IMG/VR virus record: IMGVR_UViG_2648501338_000010
Source of the DNA: a virus
Taxonomy: Duplodnaviria; Heunggongvirae; Uroviricota; Caudoviricetes
Strand: one strand, 5' to 3'
DNA: 4,536 nucleotides
Shown here: one piece after another, positions 1 through 4,536 of the stretch
How the letters are laid out: every line of letters begins with the position of its first letter
How positions within the stretch are numbered: the first letter of the stretch is position 1
The notes under the pieces: model-generated
Databases searched by the model: none
Told to the model about the DNA's origin: nothing
The model's input: the letters and a program-made list of their open reading frames with translations, nothing else
Program-made: the position numbers and the translations under genes

Positions 1-43
1 CCCGTTGACGGACTTCAGGGGAAAAACGAGTATTTTTAGTCAT
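1..43 (-). CDS. IS3-family transposase OrfA, first 14 codons only (5' partial in window; gene continues past position 1)
   Basis: ATG at 43..41 preceded by AGAGG 8 nt upstream; translation MTKNTRFSPEVRQR; the frame stays open to the window edge. Confidence 0.7.
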   Translation of the reverse strand, partial: MTKNTRFSPEVRQR

Positions 44-97
44 CCTGTTTACCTCTTTCTCAGGAAGTTTAGTCTCCAGGATTCCCGGGGCGGTTCA
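1..97 (-). mobile_element. Terminal 97 bp of an IS3-family insertion sequence (IS629/IS1203-like), outer end at position 97; element continues beyond window start
   Basis: Minus strand 97->1 reads TGAACCGCCCCGGGAATCCTGGAGACTAAACTTCCTGAGAAAGAGGTAAACAGG then ATG ACT AAA AAT ACT CGT TTT TCC CCT GAA GTC CGT CAA CGG. The TGA-initiated terminal repeat and the MTKNTRFSPEVRQR start match my recollection of the IS629-type left end and OrfA. Identification is from memory, not a search. Confidence 0.75.
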
Positions 98-165
98 ATG
101 TTCTCTGCTTCGATAACTCTGTTGAATGGTTCTCCATTCCATTCACCTGTGACTCGGAAGTGCAT
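98..165 (-). pseudogene. 5' fragment (22 codons, MHFRVTGEWNGEPFNRVIEAEN) of a minus-strand gene apparently interrupted by the IS insertion
   Basis: ATG at 165..163 with GGAG 7 nt upstream; the frame runs straight into the IS terminus at 97/98, after which the reading is IS sequence. Product unknown. A second frame (ATG 137, MENHSTELSKQRT) is a weaker alternative. Confidence 0.3.
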
Positions 166-204
166 TTATCATCTCCATAAAACAAAACCCGCCGTAGCGA
201 GTTC

Positions 205-235
205 AGATAAAAGAAATCCTCGTCAGTGCGAGGAT
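205..235 (-). terminator. Candidate intrinsic terminator for leftward transcription
   Basis: Inverted repeat atcctcg (216-222) / cgaggat (229-235) with 6-nt loop; on the minus strand the stem is followed directly by TTCTTTTAT. Stem is short, so confidence is low. Confidence 0.3.
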
Positions 236-407
236 GCTGTTCATTGCTGCTATACACTTTTTTGCTCTCAACGTAAGCGGTAGCTCATTCTGTTGGGTTG
301 GTGCAGTTGCTTTTAGGAAATGCTATTTACCCCTTAAACGTCGGCTGAAAGAGCTAAAATCCATGCAAAAAATTTACGCAATTTTGTGTATTATTGTGCA
401 GTAAGTA

Positions 408-1010
408 ATGAGCTATTTTCTGCGCAAAAAATGGATGGTAAATTTGTCCGGGGCAGGAAAAATTTTATGGGCGCTAAACATGAAAAAAGATTCGTATCCT
501 TATTTGATTTGCATGACAGTTTCAGGCCTGATCTTTATTTTCCTTTTCTTCTGGTGGCGGGCAGATATTTACAGGGTCACGTTTCTTAATCAGAGTATAT
601 CCCACTATTACATTCTGTTTAGCATGGGAATAGCTTTTCTGTTATCTCTGTTTTGGGTTAAGAAGGGGATAGTAAAACAAAGCGGCTGGAAGAGTCTGTC
701 AGCATACCTTAAGGTTTATGCAGGGATGTGCATATTTGCTGGATTTTTTCTGATTATACCCCTTACAACACTAACTTATTTTTTGCCTGGAGAGACATCG
801 TCTTATGTTGCACCGTATCGGTATACTTCCGGTAGTTCAAAAAGTTGTTCTGGAGCTGAGGTGGATGACCCTGATCTACATGAGAATATTCGCATTTGCT
901 ATCCGTATGGCAATTATGAGTACGATAATATTATCTATGTTGAAAAGAAAATTAATACATTAGGTGCGGTAGTAACATATGCACAGACCGCGCGTGATGA
1001 TACTGAATGA
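408..1010 (+). CDS. Hypothetical inner-membrane protein, 200 aa, three predicted transmembrane helices plus ~75-aa Cys/Tyr-rich C-terminal domain; unrecognised accessory (moron) gene
   Basis: Only long ORF on the plus strand, opposite to all phage early genes. Basic N-terminus (RKK, KK), then hydrophobic stretches LICMTVSGLIFIFLFFWW, ILFSMGIAFLLSLFWV and AGMCIFAGFFLIIPLTTLTYFL, then a soluble tail with Cys in SKSCSG and IRICYPYG. AT-rich codon usage: hand-counted 60-nt blocks give ~25-37% G+C versus ~48% in bet. Hairpin 35 nt after the stop. Start ATG 408 has no strong SD; in-frame ATGs at 435 and 480 are alternatives. Confidence 0.65.
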   Translation: MSYFLRKKWMVNLSGAGKILWALNMKKDSYPYLICMTVSGLIFIFLFFWWRADIYRVTFLNQSISHYYILFSMGIAFLLSLFWVKKGIVKQSGWKSLSAYLKVYAGMCIFAGFFLIIPLTTLTYFLPGETSSYVAPYRYTSGSSKSCSGAEVDDPDLHENIRICYPYGNYEYDNIIYVEKKINTLGAVVTYAQTARDDTE

Positions 1011-1044
1011 GATAGTATATAGCGGGCAAGTTTTAGTTAATTTA

Positions 1045-1078
1045 TCGAGGTAATATAATTTACCTCGACTCGTTTATT
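1045..1078 (+). terminator. Candidate terminator hairpin downstream of the membrane-protein gene
   Basis: Perfect 9-bp inverted repeat tcgaggtaa (1045-1053) / ttacctcga (1060-1068) with loop TATAAT, followed by ctcgtttattct (T-rich but interrupted). Confidence 0.35.
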
Positions 1079-1220
1079 CTGGTATTAATATTTCGCTTTA
1101 CGATCGATTTTTATCTGATGATATCATGCGGTTTTCATATACTGACTTACTGTCTTTTCTCCGTTAGCGATTTTCTCCTGCTCAGCGATGATTTTATCTT
1201 TGGCTTCTAGTTAATTTCGC

Positions 1221-1442
1221 TCACTTCGAACCTCTCTGTTTACTGATAAGTTCCAGATCCTCCTGGCAACTTGCACAAGTCCGACAACCCTGAACGGCCA
1301 GGCGTCTTCGCTCATCTATGGGATCGCCACACTCACAACAATGAGTGGCAGATATAGCCTGGTGGTTCAGGCGGCGCATTTTTATTGCTGTGTTGCGCTG
1401 TAATTCTTCAATTTCTGATGCTGAATCAATGATGTCTGCCAT
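1221..1442 (-). CDS. TraR/DksA-family C4 zinc-finger protein, 73 aa (lambda Orf73-like)
   Basis: ATG at 1442, TGA at 1223..1221. Translation contains CxxC-(17)-CxxC with the family motif CCECGDPIDERRRLAVQGCRTCASCQ. Same size as the TraR homologue I recall being encoded by lambda in this part of the pL operon. Confidence 0.85.
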   Translation of the reverse strand: MADIIDSASEIEELQRNTAIKMRRLNHQAISATHCCECGDPIDERRRLAVQGCRTCASCQEDLELISKQRGSK

Positions 1443-1493
1443 CTTCCATTAATCCCTGAATTGTTGGTTAATACGCTTGAGGGTGAATGCGAA

Positions 1494-1518
1494 CAATAAA
1501 AAAGGAGCCTGTAGCTCC
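1494..1518 (-). terminator. Candidate intrinsic terminator on the minus strand between the orf61-region ORF and the TraR-like gene
   Basis: Minus strand reads GGAGC TACAG GCTCC followed immediately by TTTTTTATTG (plus strand 1504-1518 hairpin, A-run 1495-1503). Stem is only 5 bp but GC-rich with a clean T6 tract. Confidence 0.45.
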
Positions 1519-1540
1519 CTGATGATTTTGCTTTTCATGC

Positions 1541-1822
1541 TCACCGTTCCTTAAAGACGCCGTTTAACATGCCGATCGCCAGGCTTAAATGAGTCGGTGT
1601 GAATCCCATCAGCGTTACCGTTTCGCGGTGCTTCTTCAGTACGCTACGGCAAATGTCATCGACGTTTTTATCCGGAAACTGCTGTCTGGCTTTTTTGATT
1701 TCAGAATTAGCCTGACGGGCAATACTGCGAAGGGCGTTTTCTTGCTGAGGTGTCATTGAACAAGTCCCATGTCGGCAAGCATAAGCACACAGAATATGAA
1801 GCCCGCTGCCAGAAAAATGCAT
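1541..1822 (-). CDS. Hypothetical protein in the lambda orf61 position; 93 aa from ATG 1822, or 71 aa from ATG 1756 (MTPQQENALRS...)
   Basis: Open frame in the six-frame track. ATG 1822 follows a TGA directly (TGAATG). The internal ATG 1756 overlaps the stop of a 27-codon linker ORF in ATGA fashion. I could not reconcile this ORF with the 61-codon lambda orf61 I remember, so start and identity are uncertain. Confidence 0.5.
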   Translation of the reverse strand: MHFSGSGLHILCAYACRHGTCSMTPQQENALRSIARQANSEIKKARQQFPDKNVDDICRSVLKKHRETVTLMGFTPTHLSLAIGMLNGVFKER

Positions 1823-1832
1823 TCAGTGGTTG

Positions 1833-2024
1833 TCATACCAGGTCTCTCTCATCTGCTTCTGCTTTCGCCACCATCATTTCCAGCTTTTGCGAAAGGGATG
1901 TGGCTAACGTATGAAATTCTTCGTCTGTTTCTACTGGTATTGGCACAAACCTGACTCCAATTTGAGCAAGGCTATGTGCCATCTCAATACTCGTTCTTAA
2001 CTCAACAGGAGATGCTTTGTGCAT
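1833..2024 (-). CDS. Lambda-type early protein Orf63 (63 aa), function unknown
   Basis: Length, position and 28-nt overlap with the next gene match the lambda orf63/orf60a arrangement relative to exo as I recall it; translation [26 protein letters not shown]... Confidence 0.75.
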   Translation of the reverse strand: MHKASPVELRTSIEMAHSLAQIGVRFVPIPVETDEEFHTLATSLSQKLEMMVAKAEADERDLV

Positions 2025-2179
2025 ATCGCCTCCCGTTTATTATTTATCTCCTCAGCCAGCCGCTGGGCTTTCAGCGGATTTCGGATAACAGAAAGGCCGG
2101 GAAATACCCAGCCTCGCTTCGTAACGGAGTAGACGAAAGTGATCGTGCCTACGCGGATATTATCGTGAGGATGCTTCAT
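1997..2179 (-). CDS. Lambda-type early protein Orf60a (60 aa), function unknown
   Basis: ATG at 2179..2177 overlaps the exo stop TGA (2178..2176) as ATGA. The track ORF begins two codons earlier at 2185 (MAM...); I chose the coupled start that gives 60 aa. Confidence 0.7.
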
Positions 2180-2856
2180 CGCCATTGCTCCCCAAATACA
2201 AAACCAATTTCAGCCAGTGCCTCGTCCATTTTTTCGATGAACTCCGGCACCATCTCGTCAAAACCCGCCATGTACTTTTCATCCCGCTCAACCACGACAT
2301 AATGCAGGCCTTCACGCTTCATACGCGGGTCATAGTTGGCAAAGTACCAGGCATCTTTTCGCGTCACCCACATGCTGTACTGCACCTGGGCCATGTAAGC
2401 CGACTTTATGGCCTCGAAACCACCGAGCCTGAACTTCATGAAATCCCGGGAGGTAAACGGGCATTTCAGCTCAAGGCCGTTGCCGTCACTGCATAAACCA
2501 TCGGGAGAGCAGGCGGTGCGCATACTTTCGTCGCGATAGATGATCGGGGATTCAGTAACATTCACGCCGGAAGTGAATTCAAACAGGGTTCTGGCGTCGT
2601 TCTCGTACTGTTTTCCCCAGGCCAGCGCCTTAGCATTAACTTCCGGAGCCACACCGGTGCAAACCTCAGCCAGCAGGGTGTGGAAGTAGGACATTTTCAT
2701 GTCAGGCCACTTCTTTCCTGAGCGGGGCTTTGCTATCACGTTGTGAACTTCTGAAGCGGTGATGACGCCGAGCCGTAATTTGTGCCATGCATCATCCCCC
2801 TGTTCGACAGCTCTCACGTCGATCCCGGTACGCTGCAGGATAATGTCCGGTGTCAT
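2176..2856 (-). CDS. exo: Lambda exonuclease (Red-alpha), 5'-3' dsDNA exonuclease, 226 aa
   Basis: Translation [65 protein letters not shown]... matches lambda Exo as I recall it, full length. Start ATG overlaps the bet stop (ATGA at 2853-2856). Confidence 0.97.
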
Positions 2857-3638
2857 GCTGCCACCTTCTGCTCAGTGGCTTTCTGTTTCAGGAATCCAAG
2901 AGCTTTCACTGCTTCGGCCTGTGTCAGTTCTGACGATGCGCGAATGTCGCGGCGAAATATCTGGGAACAGAGCGGCAATAAGTCGTCATCCCATGTTTTA
3001 TCCAGGGCGATTAGCAGAGTGTTAATCTCCTGCATGGTTTCATCGTTAACCGGAGTGATGTCGCGTTCCGGCTGGCGTTCTGCAGTGTATGCAGTATTTT
3101 CGACAATGCGCTCGGCTTCATCCTTGTCATAGATACCAGCAAATCCGAAGGCCAGACGGGCACACTGAATCATGGCTTTATGCCGTAACATCCGTTTAGG
3201 ATGCGACTGCCACGGCCCCGTGATTTCTCTGCCTTCGCGGGTTTTGAATGGTTCGCGGCGGCATTCATCCATCCATTCGGTAACGCAGATCGGATGATTA
3301 CGGTCCTTGCGGTAAATCCGGCATGTACAGGATTCATTGTCCTGCTCAAAGTCCATGCCATCAAACTGCTGGTTTTCATTGATGATGCGGGACCAGCCAT
3401 CAACGCCCACCACCGGAACGATGCCGTTCTGCTTATCAGGGAAGGCGTAAATTTCTTTCGTCCACGGATTAAGGCCGTACTGGTTGGCGACGATCAACAA
3501 TGCGATGAACTGCGCATCGCTGGCATCGCCTTTAAATGCCGTCTGGCGAAGAGTGGTGATCAGTTCCTGTGGGTCGACAGAATCCATGCCGACACGTTCA
3601 GCCAGCTTCCCTGCCAGCGTTGCGAGTGCTGTACTCAT
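2853..3638 (-). CDS. bet: Lambda Bet (Red-beta) single-strand annealing recombinase, 261 aa
   Basis: Translation [69 protein letters not shown]... matches lambda Bet, full length; starts 5 nt after the gam stop. Confidence 0.97.
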
Positions 3639-3643
3639 CCGTT

Positions 3644-4060
3644 TTATACCTCTGAATCAATATCAACCTGATGGTGAGCAATGGTTTCAACCATGTACCG
3701 GATGTGTTCTGCCATGCGCTCCTGAAACTCAACATCGTCATCAAACGCACGGGTAATGGCTTTTTTGCTGGCCCCGTGGCGTTGCAAATGACCGATGCAT
3801 AGCGATTCAAACAGGTGCTGGGGCAGGCCTTTTTCCATGTCGTCTGCCAGTTCTGCCTCTTTCTCTTCACGGGCTATCTGCTGGTAGTGACGCGCCCAGC
3901 TCTGAGCCTCAAGACGATCCTGAATGTAATAAGCGTTCATGGCCGAACTCCTGAAATAGCTGTGAAAATATCGCCCGCGAAATGCCGGGCTGATTAGGAA
4001 AACAGGAAAGGGGGTTAGTGAATGCTTTTGCTTGATCTCAGTTTCAGTATTAATATCCAT
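3644..4060 (-). CDS. gam: Lambda Gam, RecBCD inhibitor; 138-aa long frame (GamL) with internal SD-preceded start at 3940 giving the 98-aa GamS form
   Basis: Translation [100 protein letters not shown]... Internal ATG 3940..3938 is preceded by AGGAG 7 nt upstream; the 4060 ATG has no SD. Confidence 0.95.
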
Positions 4061-4158
4061 TTTTTATAAGCGTCGACGGCCTCACGAAACATCTTTTCAT
4101 CGCCAATAAAAGTGGCGATAGTGAATTTAGTCTGGATAGCCATAATTGTTTGATCCAT
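4015..4158 (-). CDS. kil: Lambda Kil (47 aa), host cell-division inhibitor
   Basis: ATG at 4158..4156 preceded by CAGGAGTCCCAAAAA; translation [47 protein letters not shown]; stop TAA 4017..4015. The 89-aa track ORF is an upstream extension of this frame with no SD. Confidence 0.85.
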
Positions 4159-4291
4159 TTTTTGGGACTCCTGGCTGATTAAGTATGTCGATAAGGCGTT
4201 TCCATCCGTCACGTAATTTACGGGTGATTCGTTCAAGTAAAGATTCGGAAGGGCAGCCAGCAACAGGCCACCCTGCAATGGCATATTGCAT
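4127..4291 (-). CDS. cIII: Lambda cIII (54 aa), inhibitor of FtsH/HflB protease that stabilises CII
   Basis: Not in the ORF track (below its size cutoff). ATG at 4291..4289 with AAGGAG 6 nt upstream; hand translation [54 protein letters not shown], stop TAA 4129..4127. Confidence 0.9.
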   Translation of the reverse strand: MQYAIAGWPVAGCPSESLLERITRKLRDGWKRLIDILNQPGVPKNGSNNYGYPD

Positions 4292-4363
4292 GGTGTGCTC
4301 CTTATTTATACATAACGAAAAACGCCTCGAGTGAAGCGTAATTGGTATGCGGTAACGCCGCGC

Positions 4364-4536
4364 TCAGGCGGCCTTGATAGTCATATCATCTGAATCAAAT
4401 ATTTCTGATGTATCGATATCGGTAATTCTTATTCCTTCACTACCATCCATTGGAGGCCATCCTTCCTGACCATTTCCATCATTCCAGTCGAACTCACACA
4501 CAACACCATATGCATTTAAGTCGCTTGAAATTGCTA
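4364..4536 (-). CDS. ea10: Lambda-type Ea10, 3' portion only (gene starts beyond window end)
   Basis: Minus-strand frame open from the window edge to TGA at 4366..4364; hand translation ends ...AISSDLNAYGVVCEFDWNDGNGQEGWPPMDGSEGIRITDIDTSEIFDSDDMTIKAA. Position relative to cIII matches lambda ea10; the protein sequence itself I cannot verify from memory. Confidence 0.65.
   Translation of the reverse strand, partial: AISSDLNAYGVVCEFDWNDGNGQEGWPPMDGSEGIRITDIDTSEIFDSDDMTIKAA

What the first reader, a model, noticed from the sequence alone, without database searches (positions are those of the whole stretch)
1..100. IS3-family (IS629-like) insertion abutting the prophage early-left region
The window begins inside an insertion sequence whose terminus is at position 97 and whose orfA start is at 43. 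IS629-type elements are abundant in some E. coli lineages and often inactivate prophage genes. The insertion interrupts reading frames on both strands, so the prophage left arm is probably disrupted. This affects how the adjacent accessory gene and any former partner gene should be interpreted.
Basis: partly seen in the sequence, partly recalled or inferred. Interest (0 to 1): 0.45.

Follow-up and report, generated by a model that had tools for sequence, protein, structure and literature searches.

The report
IS629 end inside prophage gene orf55
The window starts 97 bases inside an ordinary IS629-type insertion sequence that has landed in orf55, a small uncharacterised gene of a phage-434-like prophage, leaving every other gene in the window intact.

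Summary
On the minus strand, bases 97→1 are the left inverted repeat, leader and first 14 codons (ATG at 43) of a 1310-bp IS3-family element. They match full copies at 97/97, a copy RefSeq names IS629 at 96/97, and the O157/IS1203 type at 92–93/97. From base 98 the window is phage 434 (4 SNPs in 4439 bp), and IS-free relatives run straight through the site.

The insertion cuts one real gene, the homologue of λ orf55. This 55-aa gene is the last in the exo–xis region, just upstream of xis–int, and is cut after codon 22 plus 2 nt. The plus-strand "frames" are antisense artefacts. The neighbouring 200-aa accessory gene, its 310-bp upstream region, and the genes from the TraR-like orf73 through exo, bet, gam and kil to cIII are intact. 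No partner gene is missing.

The claim that the left arm is disrupted is not shown. The other IS end lies outside the window, and this junction was absent from every collection searched. The 3-bp ATG duplication therefore stays untested.

This is a new site for a well-known element, and low interest. One side observation: a different IS3-family element (ISEc52) hits the same gene about 11 nt away in other E. coli.

The parts
73..97 (-). Left terminal inverted repeat (IRL, 25 bp, 5'-TGAACCGCCCCGGGAATCCTGGAGA) of the IS629-type element. Base 97 is the outermost base.
   Evidence: Identical to the reference copy L014 2501-2525. In that copy IRL and IRR match at 23/25 and the ends are TG...CA.
44..72 (-). 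IS leader between IRL and orfA, including the Shine-Dalgarno-like AAGAGG.
   Evidence: 97/97 identity to full copies.
2..43 (-). First 14 codons of IS orfA (MTKNTRFSPEVRQR). The gene runs off the left edge of the window.
   Evidence: The reference OrfA hits Pfam HTH_Tnp_1, and the reference OrfB hits rve and NCBIfam IS3 family at 315.7 bits against a cutoff of 160.
98..100 (.). ATG flank immediately outside the IS. Candidate 3-bp target-site duplication (or ATGT if 4 bp). Untested.
   Evidence: The empty site reads CATTG|ATG|TTCTC in 434, O55:H7 and λ. IS629 makes 3-4-bp duplications (PMC3271280; CCC, (G)ATT and (G)ACC in sister prophages).
98..165 (-). 5' remnant of the λ orf55 homologue (start ATG at 165-163): 22 codons plus 2 nt of a 55-codon gene.
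   Evidence: Full gene in 434 (L013 2901-3068), O55:H7 (L001 3901-4068, WP_000545728.1) and λ lambdap35 29118-29285. The 434 and λ proteins are 100% identical. Coding status supported by third-position bias.
49..165 (-). Chimeric 38-aa ORF: 23 orf55 residues plus 15 residues read from the IS end (EPPRESWRLNFLRKR). Its TAA stop at 51-49 lies 5 nt upstream of the orfA ATG.
408..1010 (+). Adjacent accessory gene: a 200-aa predicted membrane protein, intact, 310 bp from the IS end.
   Evidence: Exact protein found in many IS-free prophages. Annotated 'putative membrane protein' in 434. No Pfam or NCBIfam family.
1221..4291 (-). Intact early-left (pL operon) genes: TraR/DksA-like orf73, 93-aa ORF (annotated as 71 aa in 434 and RefSeq), orf63, orf60a, exo, bet, gam, kil, cIII. 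The ea10/ssb gene runs off the right edge.
   Evidence: 99.9% DNA identity to phage 434 with all proteins identical.

Best explanation
An IS629-type insertion sequence (IS3 family, 1310 bp in full copies) has transposed into orf55 of a phage-434-like lambdoid prophage. orf55 is the last gene of the exo-xis region and lies just upstream of xis-int on the leftward pL transcript.

Shown:
- The window holds the left end of the IS: IRL, leader and the start of orfA. It points leftward, co-directional with the pL operon.
- The junction falls at the exact terminal nucleotide of the IS.
- orf55 is cut after codon 22 plus 2 nt. That leaves a 38-aa chimeric ORF and removes the C-terminal 32 residues.
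- All other genes in the window are unchanged.

Inferred from established knowledge of the IS3 family: the element arrived by copy-out-paste-in transposition through a circular intermediate. This is catalysed by an OrfAB transposase made by -1 frameshifting, and it should have duplicated 3-4 bp (ATG or ATGT) at the target.

Inferred consequences:
- orf55 function is lost. That function is uncharacterised, and the exo-xis region is dispensable for laboratory growth.
- At most there is a polar effect on pL-driven xis-int expression.
- The recombination, kil/cIII and accessory genes are unaffected.

The most likely layout left of the window is: rest of the IS, ATG, remaining 100 bp of orf55, xis, int, attL. 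This is not shown.
For: - IS identity: 97/97 to full 1310-bp copies and 96/97 to a copy PGAP names IS629. The reference copy is 99.6% identical to that IS629 copy over 795 bp and 94.7% to the O157-type copy.
- Reference element: TG...CA ends, 23/25 IRs, OrfA HTH_Tnp_1, OrfB rve/DDE, NCBIfam IS3 at 315.7 bits, annotated programmed frameshift with A6G at position 373.
- Empty sites: 434, λ, O55:H7, O145:H28 and 904 complete E. coli genomes carry 98-1100 uninterrupted, with orf55-xis-int to the left.
- Nearest relatives differ by only 1-2 mismatches in 4439 bp and are attλ (ybhC-side) prophages.
- orf55 is a real gene and is described as the final exo-xis gene of λ (PMC8614690).
- Three of four IS copies in sister prophages are simple insertions with 3-4-bp duplications.
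- IS629 biology: PMC3271280, PMC9943667, and the abstract of bioRxiv 10.1101/2023.06.07.543989 for circular-intermediate, copy-out-paste-in transposition.
Against: - Only 97 nt of the element are in the window, so a complete IS, its right end and the target duplication are not observed.
- The exact junction was absent from 5426 complete E. coli genomes, the phage collection, GTDB species representatives, JGI metagenomes and IMG/VR. Three junction-spanning ORFs are not on record. The left-hand context therefore could not be recovered.
- In O157 only 21 of 47 IS629 sites keep a duplication (PMC3271280).
- One of four sister copies (L007) has no duplication and sits next to a truncated O gene. 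A deletion or rearrangement endpoint is a realistic alternative for the unseen side.
Confidence: 0.85

Rival explanations
1. The junction is the endpoint of an IS-mediated rearrangement rather than a simple insertion. This could be an adjacent deletion, an IEE-promoted deletion, or recombination between two IS629 copies. The rest of orf55, and possibly xis, int and attL, would then be gone or moved, leaving a truly crippled and locked prophage.
For: In O157, 26 of 47 IS629 sites lack matching duplications (PMC3271280). IEE-dependent deletions from a few nt to more than 40 kb occur next to IS629 (PMC9943667). The IS copy in sister prophage L007 has no duplication and abuts a truncated O gene. 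Genomes with this IS type carry 15-27 matching places, giving plenty of recombination substrates.
Against: Three of four sister-prophage copies are simple insertions. Nothing in the window shows loss. The phage side is 99.9% identical to intact 434 right up to the junction.
Confidence: 0.25
2. Only a truncated remnant of the IS (a solo left end) is present, not a complete and active element.
For: Truncated copies exist. L003 766-1005 holds a 240-nt solo left-end fragment. The PGAP-named IS629 copy in L023 is annotated as frameshifted and incomplete.
Against: The 97 nt are 100% identical to intact, multi-copy elements, which suggests a recent event. Most matches in the genomes are annotated as full transposase genes.
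Confidence: 0.07
3. The join is an assembly artefact: a chimeric contig, or repeat overlap at a contig end, rather than real adjacency.
For: The window begins only 97 nt inside a multi-copy repeat. Draft contigs with a comparable ISEc52/orf55 junction end 126 nt inside that IS, so the left edge may well be a short-read contig end.
Against: The join is at the exact terminal nucleotide of the IS, as transposition requires, and a random chimera would not respect it. A contig ending inside a repeat still reflects reads that span the true junction.
Confidence: 0.02

Closest known systems
IS629 (IS3 family; isoforms IS1203 / IS3411) of Shigella and E. coli
   Same: The 97-nt left end is identical to 1310-bp copies and 96/97 to a PGAP-named IS629 copy. 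It has the TG terminus, the same OrfA N-terminus, and a prophage location typical of the element (PMC3271280).
   Different: Nothing distinguishes it as an element. It is closer to the IS629 type than to the O157 IS1203 type (92-93/97 on the end; 94.7% over the whole reference copy). This particular insertion site was not found in any collection searched.
Phage 434 (OL657226.1) and attλ-integrated 434-like prophages of E. coli O145:H28, O55:H7 and others
   Same: Window 98-4536 differs from 434 by 4 SNPs. The gene order orf55 / orf200 / orf73 / orf63 / orf60a / exo / bet / gam / kil / cIII is identical.
   Different: The window has the IS in orf55, and orf200 carries A22 where 434 has T22. 434 has an extra 114-aa ORF between xis and orf55 that the chromosomal prophages lack.
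λ orf55 (lambdap35, NP_597778.1)
   Same: The interrupted gene is its homologue. The 434 and λ proteins are 100% identical, and the position directly upstream of xis is the same (PMC8614690).
   Different: Here only residues 1-23 remain, fused to 15 IS-encoded residues. The residues modelled as RNAP contacts (N43, R45, E47) are lost.
ISEc52 insertion in orf55 of other E. coli drafts (GCA_019841405.1, GCA_019840915.1)
   Same: Also an IS3-family element, in the same small gene, about 11 nt away (around codon 26). Those contigs also break inside the IS.
   Different: A different IS and a different prophage background (Ea22-type exo-xis region). It is an independent event.

Membership tests
IS3 family / IS629 | Terminal inverted repeat ending in 5'-TG...CA-3', with high DNA identity to named IS629 copies | tested here: met
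   The IRL is present and ends in TG at window 97. It is 97/97 to full copies and 96/97 to the PGAP 'IS629' copy. The IRR is not in the window.
IS3 family / IS629 | orfA encoding an HTH protein that starts about 55 nt inside the left end | tested here: met
   The ATG is at IS position 55 (window 43). The 14 codons in the window are identical to the reference OrfA, which hits PF01527 HTH_Tnp_1. Only the N-terminus lies in the window.
IS3 family / IS629 | orfB with a DDE (rve) catalytic domain, expressed as OrfAB by -1 programmed frameshifting | not testable with these tools
   This lies outside the window and the source was not found. The feature is present in the identical-end reference copies.
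IS3 family / IS629 | 3-4-bp target-site duplication flanking the element | not testable with these tools
   The other end is outside the window. Both the known junction and the predicted opposite junction were absent from all collections.
IS3 family / IS629 | Insertion polymorphism: the same locus without the element in relatives | tested here: met
   434, λ, O55:H7, O145:H28 and 904 complete genomes have the uninterrupted site.
Lambdoid (434-like) prophage early-left region | Collinear exo-bet-gam-kil-cIII module plus exo-xis small genes, transcribed leftward | tested here: met
   99.9% identity to phage 434, with Pfam families YqaJ, RecT, Gam, Lambda_Kil and Lambda_CIII in identical relatives.
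λ orf55 homologues | 55-aa protein encoded directly upstream of xis, with sequence identity to λ lambdap35 | tested here: met
   Window residues 1-23 are identical. The full gene in relatives is 100% identical to λ. Synteny with xis-int holds even in Klebsiella prophages.

The most novel reading that the evidence does not exclude
The xis-proximal end of the pL operon, specifically the small gene orf55, might be a recurrent target of IS3-family elements. Two different elements (IS629 here, ISEc52 elsewhere) sit within about 11 nt of each other. Sister prophages carry further IS629-type copies in xis and between xis and int. Such insertions might be retained because they uncouple xis-int from pL and so lock the prophage in place, or because they remove a putative Gp2-like RNAP modulator. 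That would make them a route of prophage domestication rather than neutral damage.
Probability: 0.1. Interest if true: 0.35.

Novelty: already known. Interest (0 to 1): 0.1.

Why it matters
Mainly for annotation. The left 97 bases should be labelled as the IS629 left end, and window 98-165 as a truncated orf55 pseudogene. The plus-strand ORFs and the 38-aa chimera should not be called as genes. The accessory membrane-protein gene can be interpreted as in intact phage 434, with no missing partner. IS629 sites are lineage markers in pathogenic E. coli, so a site not seen in 5426 complete genomes could serve as a strain marker. Whether the prophage can still excise depends on sequence outside the window.

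Tried and rejected
1. Recovering the source or the other IS end. I searched the exact 42-nt junction and the predicted opposite junction in genome contigs, metagenome contigs and viral contigs. I also looked up three junction-spanning ORFs by exact sequence and ran megablast against complete E. coli genomes and phages. All were negative, so the target duplication could not be tested.

2. Tracing the source by private protein variants. Every protein fully contained in the window is identical to phage 434 except orf200, which carries A22 where 434 has T22. That exact orf200 sequence is itself common (listed in 1522 blocks of the collection), so it does not discriminate.

3. Fold-back sequestration of the orfA ribosome-binding site in read-through transcripts. 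The ATCCTG/CAGGAT complementarity suggested it. The RNA fold of window 120→20 is no better than shuffles (-15.2 kcal/mol, z = +1.05), so I rejected it.

4. Strong terminators inside the IS that would block pL read-through. There were 3 weak terminator-like sites on both strands against 1.2 ± 1.2 expected, and only one (a 6-bp stem at L014 3268-3283) is both internal to the IS and in the read-through direction. This is not informative.

5. The plus-strand ORFs at the insertion point as genes. Rejected on codon-position evidence and lack of annotation.

6. Other chimeric orf55 proteins in the database as copies of this junction. None carries the IS629-derived tail.

Full report
**Observation**

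Read on the minus strand, window 97→1 is TGAACCGCCCCGGGAATCCTGGAGACTAAACTTCCTGAGAAAGAGGTAAACAGG-ATG-ACTAAAAATACTCGT.... The ATG at 43-41 opens MTKNTRFSPEVRQR.

The 97-mer matches 3553 of 5426 complete E. coli genomes, with a median of 3 places and up to 50. It is 100% identical to a copy on plasmid NZ_CP023835.1 and 96/97 to a copy that PGAP names 'IS3-like element IS629 family transposase'. Copies named IS1203 match at 95.9%.

The 100% copy is a 1310-bp element with these features:
- TG...CA ends and 23/25 matching terminal inverted repeats.
- A 108-aa OrfA (Pfam HTH_Tnp_1).
- A 296-aa OrfB (rve/DDE; NCBIfam IS3 family, 315.7 bits against a cutoff of 160).
- An annotated programmed frameshift.

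Copies with the same 97/97 end and 1309/1310 overall identity occur in the sister prophages L003, L004 and L007. The O157-type copy in L002 is 92/97 on the end and 94.7% overall.

The match is far beyond chance (E = 1e-42).

**What the IS sits in**

Window 98-4536 is phage 434 (OL657226.1 26950-31388), with four mismatches (471, 872, 3174, 4404) and no gaps. The only amino-acid difference is in the 200-aa protein, which has A22 where 434 has T22.

The closest chromosomal relatives have 1-2 mismatches. They are prophages integrated next to ybhC, the attλ site, in E. coli including O145:H28.

Homology to phage DNA ends exactly at 97/98. The empty site reads ...AGCAGTCATTG|ATGTTCTCTG... in 434, O55:H7 RM12579 and λ (λ 29217/29218). 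In all, 904 complete genomes carry 98-1100 without the IS.

The insertion point lies in a 55-aa minus-strand gene: L013 2901-3068, L001 3901-4068 (WP_000545728.1), and λ lambdap35 at 29118-29285. The 434 and λ proteins are 100% identical.

[quoted passage not shown] It is uncharacterised, and a T7 Gp2-like RNAP-modulator role has been proposed only by modelling (PMC8614690).

**Is the interrupted gene real, and is anything on the other strand?**

Homologues down to about 75% identity exist in E. coli, E. albertii and Klebsiella. In two diverged prophages the gene still sits directly upstream of xis-int, even though the Xis and Int families differ.

Substitutions between 434 and these homologues fall mainly on the third codon position of the minus-strand frame:

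| Comparison | Position 1 | Position 2 | Position 3 |
|---|---|---|---|
| 434 vs L017 | 11 | 4 | 29 |
| 434 vs L018 | 12 | 4 | 33 |

This is the signature of a translated gene.

The plus-strand ORFs crossing the site (41, 57 and 62 aa, all with TTG starts) are not annotated in the curated 434 record or by PGAP. Relative to them the substitutions fall on position 1. So exactly one real gene is interrupted.

**Anatomy of the junction**

orf55 starts at window 165 and is cut after 68 nt (22 codons plus 2 nt). The first IS base completes an Ile codon, and the frame then reads 15 IS-derived residues. It stops at TAA (51-49), 5 nt before the orfA ATG. The result is a 38-aa chimera, MHFRVTGEWNGEPFNRVIEAENI-EPPRESWRLNFLRKR.

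The IS points leftward, co-directional with the pL operon. I tested whether read-through RNA would fold to hide the orfA start, and it does not (z = +1.05). The reference IS has no convincing terminators in the read-through direction.

**Consequences**

Shown:
- orf55 is truncated.
- orf73 (TraR-like), the 93-aa ORF, orf63, orf60a, exo, bet, gam, kil and cIII are identical at protein level to phage 434.
- The accessory 200-aa membrane-protein gene (408-1010), the 56-aa ORF (234-404) and the whole 310-bp stretch up to the IS match IS-free relatives.
- In those relatives nothing except orf55 lies between the site and the accessory gene, so no 'former partner gene' has been lost.

Inferred:
- xis and int, if still present, now lie 1.3 kb further from pL.
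- From memory of classical λ work, N-modified transcription suppresses IS polarity. The CII-dependent pI promoter lies inside or next to xis (annotated in the 434 record), so int expression for integration should be unaffected. Excision could be reduced but need not be abolished.
- 47,993 + 1,310 bp is about 49.3 kb, which is still within λ-type packaging limits. That limit comes from established knowledge and was not tested here.

**What could not be settled**

The other IS end and the proposed ATG duplication are outside the window. The exact junction, the predicted opposite junction and three junction-spanning ORFs were absent from every collection available.

The priors are mixed:
- IS629 makes 3-4-bp duplications, but only 21 of 47 O157 sites retain one (PMC3271280).
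- IEE-associated deletions occur next to IS629 (PMC9943667).
- Among four IS copies in sister prophages, three have duplications (CCC, (G)ATT, (G)ACC). One (L007) has none and abuts a truncated O gene.

I therefore put simple insertion at roughly 65-70%, a deletion or rearrangement endpoint at about 25%, and a truncated remnant or artefact at under 10%.

**Comparison with what is known, and novelty**

This is a textbook IS3-family insertion polymorphism in a lambdoid prophage. IS629-type elements are multi-copy in many E. coli, and 62% of O157 copies lie in prophages (PMC3271280). The element, the phage backbone and the interrupted gene are all known. Only this particular site is unrecorded in the collections searched.

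One side observation is mildly interesting. A different IS3-family element, ISEc52, abuts codon 26 of orf55 in other E. coli drafts, about 11 nt away. Sister prophages also carry IS629-type copies in xis and between xis and int. This hints at a tolerated or favoured target zone, but I did not test it statistically.

**Verdict**

Low interest.

Noticed in passing
L019 4001-4204 and L020 3511-3714 (E. coli drafts GCA_019841405.1 and GCA_019840915.1); corresponds to about window 86 in an uninterrupted gene: A different IS3-family element, ISEc52 (126/126 nt), abuts codon 26 of the same orf55 gene, about 11 nt from the IS629 site here. Those contigs end 126 nt inside the IS, much like this window's left edge.
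   Followed up: partly
Proteins P0092, P0093, P0098, P0099; L021 4001-4138: Several database proteins are chimeras that share orf55 residues 1-20/24 and then diverge. Mosaic or rearrangement breakpoints therefore cluster around codons 20-27 of this small gene. One lies in a nin-region context.
   Followed up: partly
L017 3001-3168 and L018 3001-3168: orf55 homologues (about 75% identity) stay directly upstream of xis-int in diverged prophages (P0044 is named Klebsiella pneumoniae by its source) that have different excisionase (Exc vs DUF1233) and integrase arm-binding families. The linkage is conserved and unexplained.
   Followed up: partly
window 408-1010 (+), with 234-404 (+) and 384-397: A 200-aa predicted membrane protein with no Pfam or NCBIfam family sits on the opposite strand, where λ has ea8.5/ea22. 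The curated 434 record annotates a CII-binding consensus (TTGT-N6-TTGT) just upstream and a 56-aa 'putative membrane protein' before it. The 434 record and PGAP disagree on the start codon (444 vs 408).
   Followed up: no
window 49-51 and 41-43 (-): The chimeric orf55-IS ORF stops at TAA only 5 nt before the orfA ATG. Ribosomes on pL read-through transcripts would therefore terminate right at the transposase start, so translational coupling is possible. No RBS-sequestering fold was found.
   Followed up: partly
window 185-204 (-), 216-235 (both strands), 1045-1068 (+): There are terminator-like hairpins between orf200 and orf55, one of them bidirectional, and another just after orf200. Four sites were found against 1.2 expected in shuffles.
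   Followed up: no
L002 2786-4095; L003 8105-9414 and 766-1005; L004 18370-19679; L007 18092-19401: Sister attλ prophages carry IS629-type copies at other sites: between xis and int, in xis, between cII and P, and in O. Duplications are CCC, (G)ATT, (G)ACC and none respectively. L003 also has a 240-nt solo left-end fragment outside the prophage.
   Followed up: yes
window 1221-1442 (-): This is a TraR/DksA-family 73-aa gene (the orf73 type). A paper in the library reports that phage λ Orf73 and TraR homologues directly reprogram host transcription (PMC9239242, title and abstract only).
   Followed up: no
window 4364-4536 (-): The right edge of the window cuts the ea10/ssb homologue (434 CPT_434_47) mid-gene. 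Together with the left edge lying inside a repeat, this suggests the window may be a whole short-read contig.
   Followed up: no
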